From Octopus sinensis (Eukaryota): a stretch of DNA of 5,751 nucleotides. Location: positions 1-5,751 of the forward strand of contig NW_021829958.1 in NCBI RefSeq assembly GCF_006345805.1, written 5' to 3'. This document shows, one piece after another, positions 1 to 5,751 of this stretch. The first letter of the stretch is position 1; every line of letters starts with the position of its first letter. Below the pieces are notes generated by a model, which was not told where the DNA came from, made no database searches, and saw only the letters and a program-made list of their open reading frames with translations. Both the position numbers and the translations under genes were made by a program.

Positions 1-315
1 TATGCAGATATGTGACACACGTTCTTGGACTAACTTGTAGCTGTTTTGCAATGTCAGAAGTCTTCGAACGGGTGTCGTTTTTCACATTCTCTTCAAACAG
101 CGAAGCTTCCTTTCCGAGGGCCCAGGTCGGTCGGGACGAAAATCTATTGATTCTTTTCCTTGGCTTTTGAATTGCACTATAATTCTATTAACAGTAGCAA
201 GAGGAATTTGAAGATTTTCGGCAATTTTTCGCTGGCAAAGACCAGCCTCAGATTGCCCAACAATACGACTTCTTTGAAAATCTGACAGTTGAGCGGAATA
301 TTTTGTGCGTGGCAT
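1..315 (-). pseudogene. Tc1/mariner-family transposase, N-terminal DNA-binding region, frameshifted; runs off the left window edge
   Basis: From the ATG at 315 the frame reads [53 protein letters not shown]...[17 protein letters not shown]. This fits a Tc1-like paired HTH followed by a GRP-like linker. TGA occurs at 84-82, but a 1-nt shift near 88 continues as [29 protein letters not shown], which resembles the second HTH, open to the window edge. The DDE domain is not in the window. Confidence 0.85.
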
Positions 316-465
316 GGCTACTCTTCGCAAATGTTTTAATATAGTGGAACCTGGAACGAAAACGAATAATTACATTGAAATTCTACACTGTTAAGAACAT
401 ATTAAGACGCTTAGGTCAGAAATTTTGAAAATTAAAGGTGTTTATTTACTTCCTGCATGTCTGTG
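1..465 (-). mobile_element. Tc1/mariner DNA transposon 5' portion with a candidate terminal inverted repeat at about 437-465
   Basis: The minus strand reads TA|CACAGACATGCAGGAAGTAAATAAACACC about 150 nt upstream of the transposase ATG. It has a TA at 466-467 and resembles Tc1-type TIR starts. Simple repeats begin shortly after. The partner TIR is outside the window, so the boundary is inferred. Confidence 0.5.
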
Positions 466-827: not shown

Positions 828-858
<31 letters not shown>

Positions 859-872
859 CTATATATATATAT

Positions 873-912
<40 letters not shown>

Positions 913-1027
913 TATGTATATATATATGTATATTATATATCTATATATATTATAATTATATATATATATATATCTATCTATATCTATCTATATGTATATA
1001 TATATGTGTGTGTGTATATATATCTAT
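828..1027. repeat. (TA)n microsatellite with TC/TG interruptions
   Basis: About 200 nt of alternating TA. Confidence 0.97.
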
Positions 1028-1110
1028 TTTACAATTGCAGCGTGGAAGGTGTTTATAGCCATTTAAGAAACACACAAAGCCGTTCGATTCACTTCAACAT
1101 TTAAGTTTAA

Positions 1111-1160
1111 TTTGTCAAAATATTTTCGTCGCTTTAGACCGCGACCTGTTCACTGACAAA
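1111..1160 (-). ncRNA. Minimal type I hammerhead ribozyme-like motif, G3:C8 core variant
   Basis: The minus strand reads UUUGUCA (stem I) GUGAACA (core) G GUCGC-ggucuaaa-GCGAC (stem II) GAAA AUAU UU (palindromic stem III plus NUH) UGACAAA (stem I'). The predicted cut lies between 1118 and 1117. Confidence 0.65.
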
Positions 1161-1180
1161 AATCCGATGCAGCACGGAGT

Positions 1181-1228
1181 TTTGTCAGTGAACAGGTCGC
1201 GGACTTTAGCGACGAAATATTTGACAAA
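1181..1228 (+). ncRNA. Minimal type I hammerhead ribozyme-like motif, G3:C8 core variant (second copy)
   Basis: UUUGUCA 1181-1187, GUGAACA 1188-1194, extra G 1195, GUCGC 1196-1200 pairing with GCGAC 1209-1213, GAAA 1214-1217, UA-U-U 1218-1221, UGACAAA 1222-1228. Confidence 0.6.
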
Positions 1229-1370
1229 TTAAACTTAAATGTTGAAGTGAATCGAACGGCTTTTGTGTGTTTCTTAAATGGTTTATAAACACCTTCCATG
1301 CTTCAATTGTTTTCGTTTCATCAGCACCGATCTCAGATCAAATTACTTGCTATGCGAGTACATCTCCTAA

Positions 1371-1402
1371 ATATATTATTATATTATATATACTTATATA
1401 TA

Positions 1403-1473
<71 letters not shown>

Positions 1474-1500
1474 CTATATATATATGTATATATATATAAA

Positions 1501-1582
<82 letters not shown>

Positions 1583-1589
1583 TATATAC
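1371..1589. repeat. (TA)n microsatellite
   Basis: Long alternating TA tract. It is the source of the YIYI ORFs. Confidence 0.97.
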
Positions 1590-1764
1590 AGCCAGGTGTG
1601 GCTGTGTGGTAAGAAGCTTGCTTCTCAGCCACATGGTTCCGGGCTCAGTCCCACTGCGTGGCTACTTGGGCGTGTGTTTTTGTACCATAGCCCCGGGCCA
1701 ACCAAAGCCTTGTGAGTGCATTTGGTAGACGGAAACTGAAAGAAGCCCATCGTATATATATTAT

Positions 1765-1805
<41 letters not shown>

Positions 1806-2003
1806 ATAGAGAGAGAGAGAGATATGTATTTATCTGTGTTTGTCCCCCCCCCCATCACTTGGCAACCGATGTTGGTGTGTTTCCGTTCCCGTAACTTAAT
1901 GGTTCGGCAACAAAAGACCTATAGACTAAGTACTAGGCTTACAAAGAATCAGGTGGTGCTCCGGCATGGCCACAGTCAGGTGACTGAAACAAGTAACAGA
2001 ATA
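1590..2003 (+). mobile_element. tRNA-derived SINE family A, copy 1 (diverged; internal (TA)n/(GA)n at about 1753-1825)
   Basis: Collinear with 3003-3413. It has an A-box-like tggctgtgtgg, a degenerate B-box ggctcagtccc, the block tttggtagacggaaactgaaagaagccc, and the 3' end tgactgaaacaagtaa. It lacks the ggggtcgatttgctcgact segment. Confidence 0.9.
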
Positions 2004-2311
2004 AATAAGATGTCTGTGTGTCAGGAACTTAGAACTGGCACATTTCATTTGAAACCGACATATTGTTTATGCTACCCGAGACATGTTGTATTCTCCGTTT
2101 TTGTTTTGTTCTTGTTTTAATTATTCTTAACACGAAGACATTTTAAAGCTTGTTTCCTGGTGTGAATTACACTGCTGCGTATTTGGCGTGGAGGTGGGGG
2201 GGCCAGGATGGATTCTTTCTTACATGTAGGAGTGGGCGGTTGGTTTTGGGGTGGAGATTGCCATTGATATCTTTGGGCAGTGACACTTCCGAAATTCTTT
2301 TAAAACAACAC

Positions 2312-2593: not shown

Positions 2594-2775
2594 ACACAAC
2601 AACGCGAGACTGGAACAAAATATTATTATTGGACGCTCAGGAAAGAAGGAAAGAAGAGGGTTTACGTTTCGAGCGGAGCTTCTTCGTCGGAAACATAGGA
2701 GAAGAAAGATCCGAAGAAGGGAAGACAGAGGAAAAAAAATCGCCAACGGTACACACGAGGACACATTTTGAAATA
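2567..2775 (-). mobile_element. Second probable PLE-derived short element carrying a degenerate hammerhead-like motif
   Basis: It abuts (TA)n at the minus-strand 3' end and contains CCGACGA-A-stem II-GAAACGU on the minus strand. The right boundary is approximate. Confidence 0.5.
2660..2694 (-). ncRNA. Degenerate minimal hammerhead-like motif
   Basis: The minus strand reads GUUU CCGACGA A GA(A)GC-ucc-GCUC GAAA CG U AAAC. It has U4 changed to C, a bulge in stem II, and is one nucleotide short at the cleavage site/stem I. This copy is probably inactive. Confidence 0.45.
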
Positions 2776-3002: not shown

Positions 3003-3413
3003 GGCGCAGGAGTGGCTGTGTGGTAAGTTGCTTGCTAACCAACCACATGGTTGCGGGTTCAGTCCCACTGCGTGGCATCTTGGGCAAGTGTCTTCTGCTA
3101 TAGCCTCGGGCCGACCAATGCCATGTGATTGAATTTGGTAGACGGAAACTGAAAGAAGCCTGTCGTATATATGTATATATATGTGTGTTTGTGTGTGTGT
3201 GTGTGTTTGCGTGTCTGTGTTTGTCCCCCTAGCATTGCTTGACAACCGATTCTGGTGTGTTTACGTCCCCGTAACTTAGCGGTTCGGCAAAAGAGACCGA
3301 CAGAATAAGTACTGGGCTTACAAAGAATAAGTCCCGGGGTCGATTTGCTCGACTAAAGGCGGTGCTCCAGCATGGCCGAAGTCAAATGACTGAAACAAGT
3401 AAAAGAGTAAAGA
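3003..3413 (+). mobile_element. tRNA-derived SINE family A, copy 3 (most complete; CORE-like; resembles octopus tRNA-SINEs)
   Basis: Starts GGCGCAGGAG. A box TGGCTGTGTGG at 3013-3023, B-box-like GGTTCAGTCCC at 3056-3066, CORE-like TCTTGGGCAAGT at 3078-3089, internal (TA)/(TG) tract at about 3166-3215, and tail GACTGAAACAAGTAAAAGAGTAAAGA. Four homologous copies are in the window. Confidence 0.92.
3013..3066 (+). promoter_or_regulatory. RNA polymerase III internal promoter (A box and B box) of the SINE head
   Basis: TGGCTGTGTGG and GGTTCAGTCCC at tRNA-like spacing. The motifs recur in the copy at 5586. Confidence 0.7.
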
Positions 3414-3417
3414 ATAT

Positions 3418-3608
3418 ATATTCTCTTCTACTCTAAGCACAAGACCCGAAATTTTGGAGGAAGGGCCAGTTGATTAGATCGACTCCAGTACGCAACTGGC
3501 ATTTAATTTATCCACCCCGAAAGGATGAACGGCAAAGTCGACTTCGGCAGAATTTCAACTCAGAACGTAAAGACAGACGAAATACCACTAAGCATTTCAC
3601 CCGGCGTA
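3418..3608 (-). mobile_element. SINE family B (Nin/Deu-like domain), 5'-truncated
   Basis: It is the reverse-complement homolog of 3627-3833, including ccccgaaaggatgaacggcaaagtcgac and aatttcaactcagaacgt. Confidence 0.88.
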
Positions 3609-3626
3609 CTTGTGCCTAGAGTAGAG

Positions 3627-3833
3627 AAAAAACGTTAGTACTCTGGGTGAAATGTTTAGTGGTATTTCCTGTGACTCTACGTTCTGAGTTCAAATTCCGC
3701 CGAGGTCGACTTTGCCTTTCATCCTTTCGGGGTAGATAAATTAAATACCAGTTGTGTACTGTGGCCAATCTAATCGACTAGTCCCTCTTTCCAAAATAAA
3801 TTACGAGCATGTGCCTAGAGTAGAAGAGAATAT
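3627..3833 (+). mobile_element. SINE family B (Nin/Deu-like domain), slightly 5'-truncated
   Basis: B-box-like GTTCAAATTC at 3688-3697. GCCTTTCATCCTTTCGGGGTAGATAAA at 3714-3740 resembles the Nin/Deu SINE central domain, from memory. The 3' end is gtgcctagagtagaagagaatat. Confidence 0.88.
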
Positions 3834-4489: not shown

Positions 4490-5585
4490 CACCATTACGC
4501 CACCCTCTTCGCTCCTCGCCCTCACCCGCACATCCACCACAACGTCCTTCATCACTACTAACGTCACCAGAACCATCACCACCAACACCACTACCACCAC
4601 CATCACCACCATCATCACCATCATCATCATATTTTCACTACCACCACCACTTCACATCCAGCACTACCGTCACCACTACCATCACAACCACCACAACCTC
4701 GAATCCACAACTATTGGTGTCGCCACCATCAGCACCGTCGGAACCGTCATTGCCATCATCACCATCTACCCTATCACACCACCACCATCATCGCCATCAG
4801 CAGCAGCGTCACAACCACCATCATCAAAACATCTGTCACCACCAGCATCTACGCCACCACTATCATCACCACCAGCACCAGCACCACCATCACAACCATC
4901 ATCAACACCACCTCCACCACCACCACCATCATCATGACCACCACCACTATCCATCAACAACACCACCACCACCACCACCATTAACACATCCGTCACCACC
5001 AGCATCTACACCACCACTATCATCACCACCACCACCACCACCACCACCACCACCACAACCATCATCAACACCACTACCACCACCACCACCATCATCAACA
5101 CCACTACCACCACCACCACCATCATCATCACCACCGCCACCACCACCACCATCAAGACATCCGTCACCATCAGCATCTACACCACCACCACGACTTCCAC
5201 TGCCACTCCCACAACCAACACCACCGATAATTCCATCGCAACCATCATCATCATCATCATCATCATTACTGCCATCATCTCCACCACCACCGCTACCATC
5301 GTTGTCAACACTGACATAACCCATACAAGTAGCGTCTGTATCATCATCACGAATCAACCAGAATCACCATCATAACCATTACCATTACGTCCATCACCAC
5401 CACTACCACCACCACCGACGACAGCCACAACCACAAACCCGTCGGCTCGTACATCCCCATCAACATCCTTTACAAAAACACCTTTACCCTTAGCATCATC
5501 ATCGCCTCAGCATCATCATCCCCTCGGCATCATCATCGCCTCAGCATCATCATCAACATCATCATCACTAACAATATCGCCATCA
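4490..5585. repeat. About 1.1 kb degenerate (CAC/CAT)n trinucleotide tract with internal higher-order repeats
   Basis: caccaccac/catcatcat occur throughout. It is the source of the poly-H/P and poly-G/D/V ORFs. Confidence 0.95.
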
Positions 5586-5741
5586 AGCGTAGGAGTGGCT
5601 GTGTGGTAAGTAGCTTGCTTACCAACCACACGGTTCCGGGTTCATTCCCACTGCGTGGAACCTTGGGCAAGTGTGTTCTACAATAGCCTCGGTGGATTTG
5701 GTAGACTGAATGACTGAAACAAGTAAAAGAGTAAAAAGAGT
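5586..5741 (+). mobile_element. SINE family A, copy 4 (intact tRNA head and CORE-like region, two internal deletions, intact tail)
   Basis: agcgtaggagtggctgtgtggtaagtagcttgc...ggttcattccc...ccttgggcaagt...gcctcgg|tggatttggtagac|tgaatgactgaaacaagtaaaagagtaaaaagag. Confidence 0.9.
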
Positions 5742-5751
5742 ATAAAGGGTG

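What the first reader, a model, noticed from the sequence alone, without database searches (positions are those of the whole stretch)
1111..1228. Pair of hammerhead-ribozyme-like motifs with a compensatory G3:C8 catalytic core hidden in a palindrome
Seen in the sequence: each arm has complete type I hammerhead topology, with a 7-bp stem I (UUUGUCA/UGACAAA), GUGAACA, one extra G, a 5-bp stem II (GUCGC/GCGAC), GAAA, a tiny palindromic stem III and an NUH site. Established: C3 and G8 of the CUGANGA core form a Watson-Crick pair in the active fold, an extra nucleotide after A9 occurs in natural hammerheads, and minimal hammerheads with palindromic stem III typify Penelope-like elements and can cleave as dimers. 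Inference: the two core deviations are exactly a C3G plus G8C swap, so this may be a functional variant that CUGANGA-based searches would miss. It could mark an overlooked ribozyme-bearing retroelement family in this genome. I cannot tell whether it has already been described.
Basis: partly seen in the sequence, partly recalled or inferred. Interest (0 to 1): 0.85.

Follow-up and report, generated by a model that had tools for sequence, protein, structure and literature searches.

The report
Swapped-core hammerhead in octopus retroelement
The palindrome is two head-to-head end fragments of a Penelope-type jumping gene of an octopus, each holding a hammerhead-shaped RNA whose paired core letters are swapped (G-C instead of C-G) in some four thousand genome copies; it likely still cuts RNA weakly, which is untested, and the standard RNA-family search missed it.

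Summary
The palindrome is two head-to-head 5'-end fragments of a young Penelope-like retroelement (Neptune/Nematis type: RT, CxxxCxxC linker, C-terminal GIY-YIG), inserted in (TA)n, tail on one arm only. G3:C8 is the family state (27 of 27 printed copies in the ORF-bearing loci; 3,926 C8 copies), not decay. The sister family and the outgroups carry C3:G8 and one relative U3:A8, so the pair covaries and the swap is derived. Subfamily changes hit loop II (4 of 8 sites) and none of 42 structured sites. Against the 'pair' idea: the arms lie on opposite strands and anneal, burying the ribozyme; copies start upstream of the motif, not at the cut site. Other families here drift too (A9C, U4C), so cleavage may be dispensable. 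Cleavage is untested. I found no natural G3:C8 in print (two key papers not held). This scan noted G3:C8 before on other DNA (phages, other Penelope tails). New variant of a known kind.

The parts
1031..1166 (-). Left arm: inverted copy of the element's 5' end (about +11 to +147 from the inferred start), ending at the first 3' end point, no tail
1111..1160 (-). Hammerhead motif, left arm: G3 at 1153, C8 at 1148, stem III AAUAUU, U17 at 1118
1167..1367 (+). Right arm: copy of the element's 5' end (about +3 to +202), including the tail
1181..1228 (+). Hammerhead motif, right arm: G3 at 1188, C8 at 1193, stem III shortened to AUAU, U17 at 1221
1278..1367 (+). First codons of the element's RT-endonuclease ORF (ATG at 1278); in the long copy L041 this frame runs on into the ORF. 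The hammerhead lies upstream, in non-coding sequence
1311..1367 (+). Tail (about 57 nt) between the two preferred 3' end points, present on one arm only
   Evidence: 28 of 30 head-to-head pairs have exactly one tail
828..1027 (.). (TA)n target array, left
1371..1588 (.). (TA)n target array, right

Best explanation
The palindrome is two head-to-head copies of the 5' end (pseudo-LTR) of a young endonuclease-bearing Penelope-like retroelement, and each copy holds that element's minimal type I hammerhead motif, whose 3:8 pair changed from C:G to G:C in this lineage and which likely still cleaves weakly, as a dimer or with help from the element's protein. Shown: the family, its ORF, the motif's place in the pseudo-LTR, G3:C8 as family state, C3:G8 in the sister and the outgroups, structure kept through subfamilies, two fixed 3' ends, 5' ends piled just upstream of the motif. 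Inferred: a capped transcript starts 15 nt before stem I; the protein cuts (TA)n on both strands and starts reverse transcription inside the RNA at two sites (+147, +206); priming at the sites near the RNA's 5' end gives short cDNAs, one per strand, joined head to head, so that one arm has the tail. The templates were uncut at this motif. Cleavage, if any, would act in the source element's long transcript, which has two sense copies 4.36 kb apart; the window's own pair would be silent because the arms anneal.
For: Repeat family: 5,876 exact matches of a 23-mer, control 0. Motif about 1 kb behind the GIY-YIG ORF in 19 of 20 loci (the 20th contig ends first), and in front of the ORF in L041. G3:C8 in 27 of 27 printed copies in these loci, G3 in 100 and C8 in 98 of the first 100 of 1,652 matches (by eye), G:C in 51 of 57 arms chosen by a distant 3' word, 3,926 C8 against 235 non-C8 matches. 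Sister-type motif: 3,574 matches, C3:G8 in 87 of the first 100 (by eye). 13-row alignment: pair 3:8 paired in 13 of 13 (CG 8, GC 3, UA 1, UG 1), stem II 100% paired, 4 of 5 pairs changed on both sides. Tree: this family is sister to the C3:G8 family (support 100); rows L053 and L060 outside are C3:G8. Common subfamily variants: 0 of 42 structured sites, 4 of 8 in loop II (p 3e-4), 12 of 156 flank sites (p 0.07). In the natural 5' context stems I and II have probability 0.93 and 0.996. The swap rescues cleavage in the laboratory: partly in an Anolis Penelope hammerhead (PMC11167929), and as the only rescuing double change in that motif (PMC9901934). 30 of 60 regions are head-to-head pairs, 28 of 30 with one tail; 20 of 28 short copies carry an extra G at the start.
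Against: No cleavage data. 5' ends do not pile at the cut site (2 of 90 arms within 2 nt). Core drift is common here: the commonest sister subfamily has A9C (about 65 of the first 100), the U3:A8 relative also has C9, and another hammerhead-bearing repeat has U4C in 69 of the first 100. G3:G8 copies are in excess over a control site (47 of 100 against 17 of 78, p 5e-4), so unpaired forms may have spread. The extra nucleotide is G, where the published consensus has H. The AAUAUU duplex is worth only -0.2 kcal/mol and a two-copy fold did not give the dimer form. The 13 rows are related and few: the three G:C rows are one event, and the outer stem I pairs hold poorly outside this family (68% paired). 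Hammerhead mutants did not impair insertion in vitro in Anolis. The tail is longer than the usual 30-40 bp. Pfam gave no family for this ORF itself.
Confidence: 0.75

Rival explanations
1. The motif is kept as a folded RNA element (a binding site for the element's protein, or a control of translation just ahead of the ORF) and no longer cleaves; the 3:8 pair is kept for shape only.
For: Templates are uncut. A9C, U4C and G3:G8 forms spread in this genome. Cleavage was not needed for insertion in vitro; minimal Penelope hammerheads cleave poorly.
Against: G5, A6, G12, A13, A14, A15.1 and position 17, which serve catalysis, carry no common variant in the family, and G5, A6, G12-A14 are invariant in 13 of 13 rows. 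The one double change seen is the one known to keep activity. U17 avoids the G3-C17 mispair that a published remark suggests would slow a G3-C8 core (data not shown there).
Confidence: 0.2
2. The swap is neutral decay of a dead ribozyme in a source element that happened to amplify.
For: Copies decay neutrally after insertion, so copy number alone shows no selection; the element must have passed through an unpaired state.
Against: Two complementary transversions at exactly 3 and 8, plus a both-sided change in stem II, while loop II varies among subfamilies and the 42 structured sites do not.
Confidence: 0.04
3. The palindrome is a MITE or fold-back DNA element with a TA target, and the hammerhead look is chance.
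For: Long inverted repeat in (TA)n.
Against: The arm is the end of an RT-endonuclease element; the centre junction varies from copy to copy and half of the regions hold no head-to-head pair; 0 of 1000 shuffles match.
Confidence: 0.01

Closest known systems
Minimal type I hammerheads in the pseudo-LTRs of metazoan Penelope-like elements (Cervera and de la Pena 2014, PMC4209133)
   Same: Place in the pseudo-LTR, extra nucleotide after 9, G10.1-C11.1, GAAA, palindromic short stem III, NUH site; most copies solo or as opposite-strand pairs.
   Different: G3:C8 core; that paper reports C3:G8 and U3:A8 only, in the parts I read. Extra nucleotide G, not H. Stem I of 7 bp is longer than usual.
Natural U3:A8 core variants (Perreault et al. 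2011, PMC3088659; Schistosoma Cercyon elements in PMC4209133)
   Same: Natural covariation of the 3:8 pair.
   Different: U3:A8 needs two transitions; G3:C8 needs two transversions and puts a pyrimidine at 8. Neither paper lists G3:C8 in the text I read.
PAc, the Poseidon element of Anolis (Frangieh et al. 2024, PMC11167929)
   Same: Hammerhead near the ORF start, two internal start sites of reverse transcription that define the tail, both target strands cut, uncut RNA as template; its engineered C3G/G8C mutant partly cleaves.
   Different: Here the swap is natural, the ORF starts 57 nt behind the cut site instead of inside the motif, the tail is about 57-59 nt, and the protein has a zinc-finger-like linker.
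Neptune / Nematis clades of endonuclease-bearing Penelope-like elements (as described in Craig et al. 2021, PMC8557442)
   Same: C-terminal GIY-YIG, CX2-5CxxC linker, (TA)n targets, partial tandems, inverted 5'-truncated copy, one-sided tail.
   Different: Not placed against named reference elements; I lean to Neptune from recall of its size and targets.

Membership tests
Minimal type I hammerhead of Penelope-like elements | Literal core CUGANGA | tested here: not met
   GUGAACA in both arms and the family; filed as a variant, not a plain member
Minimal type I hammerhead of Penelope-like elements | Watson-Crick pair between positions 3 and 8 | tested here: met
   G:C here; paired in 13 of 13 rows with changes on both sides
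Minimal type I hammerhead of Penelope-like elements | U4 G5 A6, A9, G12 A13 A14, A15.1-U16.1, H17 | tested here: met
Minimal type I hammerhead of Penelope-like elements | Extra nucleotide between 9 and 10.1 (consensus H) and G10.1-C11.1 | tested here: inconclusive
   Extra nucleotide and G-C pair present, but the extra letter is G
Minimal type I hammerhead of Penelope-like elements | Palindromic short stem III | tested here: met
   AAUAUU in the family, AUAU in the right arm
Minimal type I hammerhead of Penelope-like elements | Lies in the pseudo-LTR, sense to the ORF | tested here: met
   19 of 20 ORF-end loci; both ends in L041
Minimal type I hammerhead of Penelope-like elements | Self-cleavage after position 17 | not testable with these tools
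   No assay; only assembled contigs could be laid
Endonuclease-bearing Penelope-like element (Neptune/Nematis type) | One ORF with RT and C-terminal GIY-YIG | tested here: met
   1,010-aa open frame in L034 with RT motifs and a C-terminal YxIxC...YIG block; Pfam RVT_1 and GIY-YIG each in 2 of 24 aligned members, none in this protein
Endonuclease-bearing Penelope-like element (Neptune/Nematis type) | CX2-5CxxC linker before the endonuclease | tested here: met
   CxxxCxxC, conserved in the alignment
Endonuclease-bearing Penelope-like element (Neptune/Nematis type) | Pseudo-LTR, inverted 5'-truncated copy, one-sided tail, (TA)n target | tested here: met
   tail longer than the usual 30-40 bp
Endonuclease-bearing Penelope-like element (Neptune/Nematis type) | Placement with named Neptune or Nematis RTs in a tree | not tested
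   No named reference sequences were available as stored proteins; one search holds unnamed relatives only
Naiad | N-terminal endonuclease | tested here: not met
   Endonuclease is C-terminal
Hydra clade | DKT motif, CxCX5C linker, 2-2.7 kb | tested here: not met
   DKSG, CxxxCxxC, unit of 4.36 kb
Non-LTR retrozyme | Head-to-tail tandem monomers, each with a hammerhead | tested here: not met
   In 60 regions of 700 bp, 30 head-to-head pairs and otherwise mostly single arms

The most novel reading that the evidence does not exclude
An active natural G3:C8 hammerhead fixed in a successful animal retroelement, reached from C3:G8 through a G3:G8 step whose copies still lie in the genome, and paired with U17 to avoid a G3-C17 trap. 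Its clade (G:C, C:G, U:A at 3:8; A or C at 9) is a ready-made natural series for asking what Penelope hammerheads are for, and a sign that CUGANGA searches miss whole families.
Probability: 0.3. Interest if true: 0.7.

Novelty: new variant of a known kind. Interest (0 to 1): 0.52.

Why it matters
The C3G/G8C swap is a classic laboratory rescue that proved the 3:8 pair; I found no natural case in print. Here it is the state of a whole family with thousands of copies, with the ancestral state in the sister lineage of the same genome, so selection on the pair can be read from sequence. It shows that descriptor and Rfam scans miss real Penelope hammerheads. The function of these ribozymes is an open question; sister families with G3:C8, C3:G8, A9C and U4C cores in one animal make it directly testable. 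The copy anatomy (fixed start, two 3' ends, one tail per palindrome) also fits the internal-priming model from Anolis in a distant clade.

Tried and rejected
Naiad idea (that G3:C8 motifs are the missing Naiad ribozymes): the partner ORF has a C-terminal endonuclease, and four GUGANCAG-type words gave 13 places in the held, cut part of the Craig supplement, of which the 7 shown lay in ORF-like or 5' sequence; not a real test of all Naiads. Splice-acceptor reading of the fixed 5' end (a CTAAC, pyrimidines and AG precede it): no common upstream exon appears in 28 short copies, so I prefer a capped start, but no RNA test was possible. Coding constraint as the cause of the swap: the ORF starts 57 nt behind the cut site. 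An older C3:G8 subfamily with this family's own stem II: none in the first 100 of 235 non-C8 matches. Expression: no RNA holder listed on record; four contig sets were laid, which cannot show ends or cleavage. Dimer fold by two-strand folding: not recovered. PDB search: one weak RT match only. No motif found in L052 (none seen in the part that was shown) or in the short contigs L056, L059, L061-L067; L054-L058 seem to hold a C3:G8 motif with G12A (by eye) and were left out of the alignment. Luense et al. 2017 and Hammann et al. 2012 were not held and may list core variants; figures, one 2014 supplement file and bioRxiv supplements were not seen.

Full report
1. Observation. The window is repeat-rich animal DNA. 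A descriptor with a free Watson-Crick 3:8 pair found only these two in the window; of 1000 dinucleotide shuffles 9 gave any hit with both stems of 4 bp or more, 2 with 5 bp or more, 0 as good as observed. Each arm alone folds into stems I and II. Rfam listed 49 matches at E up to 10, none a hammerhead. The arms are about 91% alike over about 140 nt, so the palindrome spans 1031-1310, between two (TA)n arrays.

2. The repeat and its element. The genome G000 (2.72 Gb) holds 5,876 exact matches of a 23-mer from the arm, control 0. A protein named Octopus vulgaris in its record (P0001) matches G000 at up to 99%, so the host is that octopus or a close relative. Two of the first 30 loci shared 1.5 kb upstream of the arm, ending in a GIY-YIG frame. 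I fetched 20 of the 41 listed matches to that frame. In 19 of 20 the arm follows about 1 kb behind the stop codon, in sense; the 20th contig ends first. In L041 a second copy stands in front of the ORF and runs into it, 4,361 nt from the first; L034 has an open frame of 1,010 element residues. The protein has RT motifs, a DKSG block, a CxxxCxxC linker and a C-terminal endonuclease, with 84 relatives. Pfam names no family for it; RVT_1 and GIY-YIG each hit 2 of 24 aligned members. By the features given in passages of PMC8557442 this is the Neptune/Nematis type, not Naiad or Hydra. The ORF's ATG is at +115 from the inferred start, the cut site after +58, so the motif is non-coding.

3. G3:C8 is the family state. 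All 27 copies printed from those 20 loci have it. Among the first 100 of 1,652 matches chosen by flanks, G3 stands in 100 and C8 in 98 (by eye). Among 57 arms chosen by a word about 100 nt away, 51 are G:C, 2 G:G, 2 G:U, 1 C:C, 1 U:U. Genome-wide there are 3,926 C8 and 235 non-C8 matches. In four contig sets from four organism codes no other letter was listed at a core position; 18 rows of that table were not shown.

4. It is derived and compensatory. The sister family (58% protein identity, tree support 100, quick tree) has the homologous motif with C3:G8 and stem II changed on both sides. A pattern for this type gave 3,574 matches, 87 of the first 100 C3:G8 (by eye). Rarer subfamilies read CUGAUGAG or CUGAAGAG; the second differs from this family's core only at 3 and 8; 3 of 20 such loci still carry ORF remnants. 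Of 17 metagenome loci, L053 and L060 have C3:G8 and L051 has U3:A8 with C9. On 13 rows, which I chose as one to three per subfamily, the 3:8 pair is paired in all (CG 8, GC 3, UA 1, UG 1), stem II is fully paired, 83% of cells pair against 72% in shuffles and at most 41% when slid. The rows are related, so this is three states, not 13 events. Within the family, variants at 20% or more fall on 0 of 42 structured sites, 4 of 8 loop II sites (p 3e-4) and 12 of 156 flank sites (p 0.07); two of the flank sites are mostly peculiar to the reference copy.

5. How the palindrome arose (inferred). I took 60 regions from the first part of the list, leaving out some that were already held. They hold 90 arms; 30 regions are head-to-head pairs, 28 with a tail on exactly one arm, none with two. 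3' ends fall at +143 to +150 (38) or +198 to +209 (49). 5' ends: 4 run on upstream, 36 lie at 0 to +8, 15 at +15 to +18 (probably alignment breaks at a variable site), 34 are scattered further in, only 2 within 2 nt of the cut site. In another set, 20 of 28 short copies have a G in front of the start that the long element lacks (p 3e-7 against 0.25), as a copied cap would give (recalled for LINE-1). This fits the Anolis work (PMC11167929, parts 1-2 of 4 read): both target strands cut, reverse transcription starting at two internal sites that bound the tail, uncut RNA as template. An internal promoter is reported for Penelope (PMC2377424, abstract and one section). So the window holds two short cDNAs from the 5' end of a transcript, joined head to head.

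6. Does it cut? For: the swap partly restores cleavage in the Anolis ribozyme, is the one rescuing double change in that motif in a full pairwise screen (PMC9901934, passages), and is noted in a review (PMC8495972, passage). The catalytic letters are kept. Position 17 is U; PMC3884650 remarks, without data, that G3-C8 works worse with C17 (passage). In its natural 5' context the fold has probability above 0.9. Against: minimal Penelope hammerheads are inactive as monomers and weak as dimers (PMC4209133, parts 1-2 of 4); the stem III duplex is -0.2 kcal/mol; templates are uncut; A9C and U4C forms have spread in other families of this genome; G3:G8 copies are in excess over a control C in the same ACA context (47 of 100 against 17 of 78, counted by eye, p 5e-4; the control covers only some loop types), and they occur in old and young subtypes, so a hotspot is as likely as an intermediate. 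I put weak, assisted cleavage at about 0.6. The window's pair is not a dimer ribozyme: one sense copy per strand, buried in a -203 kcal/mol hairpin.

7. Novelty. Perreault et al. (PMC3088659, section 8 read) and Cervera and de la Pena (parts above, plus a word search of two supplement files) report natural U3:A8 only. Searches for G3-C8, C3G, G8C, GUGANCA and for octopus hammerheads gave no natural G3:C8. The Hydra and Chlamys motif table in the Craig supplement (part 2 of 59) has none. A 2026 preprint on ribozymes has no mention of Penelope or octopus in its main text (word search); a second on retrozymes uses canonical and minimal models (part 1 of 5). Two papers that could list such variants were not held. 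This scan has noted G3:C8 before, in phages and in two other Penelope-type tails, unchecked by me; nothing on this genome or sequence. What this case adds is copy number, an in-genome ancestor state and a selection signal. Verdict: new variant of a known kind, interest 0.52.

Noticed in passing
window about 2660-2695, minus strand: A second, unrelated hammerhead-shaped repeat (core CCGACGA, this copy with an extra A in stem II). A 28-nt pattern has 9,276 matches in G000; 69 of the first 100 have C at position 4 and 31 the usual U (by eye). A U4C form seems to have out-amplified the canonical one. Its partner element was not sought.
   Followed up: partly
L068, L069 (G000 sister family) and L051: A9C in the commonest sister subfamily (about 65 of the first 100 matches) and, apparently independently, in the U3:A8 relative L051. 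The sister's stem III is only partly palindromic.
   Followed up: partly
G000, matches: G3:G8 copies are more frequent than a control site predicts: an evolutionary intermediate or a mutation hotspot.
   Followed up: partly
L041 1786 and 1806: A-to-G at 10-18% in two runs guessed to be RNA and under 0.2% in two much larger runs. It would fit A-to-I editing of double-stranded transcripts from palindromic copies, but the runs are from different organism codes and none is on record as RNA.
   Followed up: no
window 1169-1179 and 1294-1304: The start of the unit and the first 3' end point are imperfect inverted repeats that would pair fully, with two G-T wobbles, on the antisense (cDNA) strand; seen by eye, may bear on where copies stop or fold back.
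   Followed up: no
window 82-369, minus strand: Fragment of a Tc1-like transposase N-terminal helix-turn-helix (Pfam HTH_SB, E 3.5e-6, below the cut-off).
   Followed up: partly
window 1590-2010, 2817-2885, 3004-3420, 5587-5745: Copies of a very common interspersed repeat next to (TA)n, also seen in many fetched loci; looks like an octopus SINE-type repeat (recalled, not tested).
   Followed up: no
window 3452-3795: Another long inverted repeat (159-nt arms, 84%) of a different common repeat.
   Followed up: no
window 4500-5440: Degenerate (CCA/CAT)n array; its threonine- or histidine-rich frames are probably not genes.
   Followed up: no
L019, L031: L019 flank holds the end of a different Penelope-type ORF; L031 flank holds frames of an LTR-retrotransposon-like element.
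   Followed up: no
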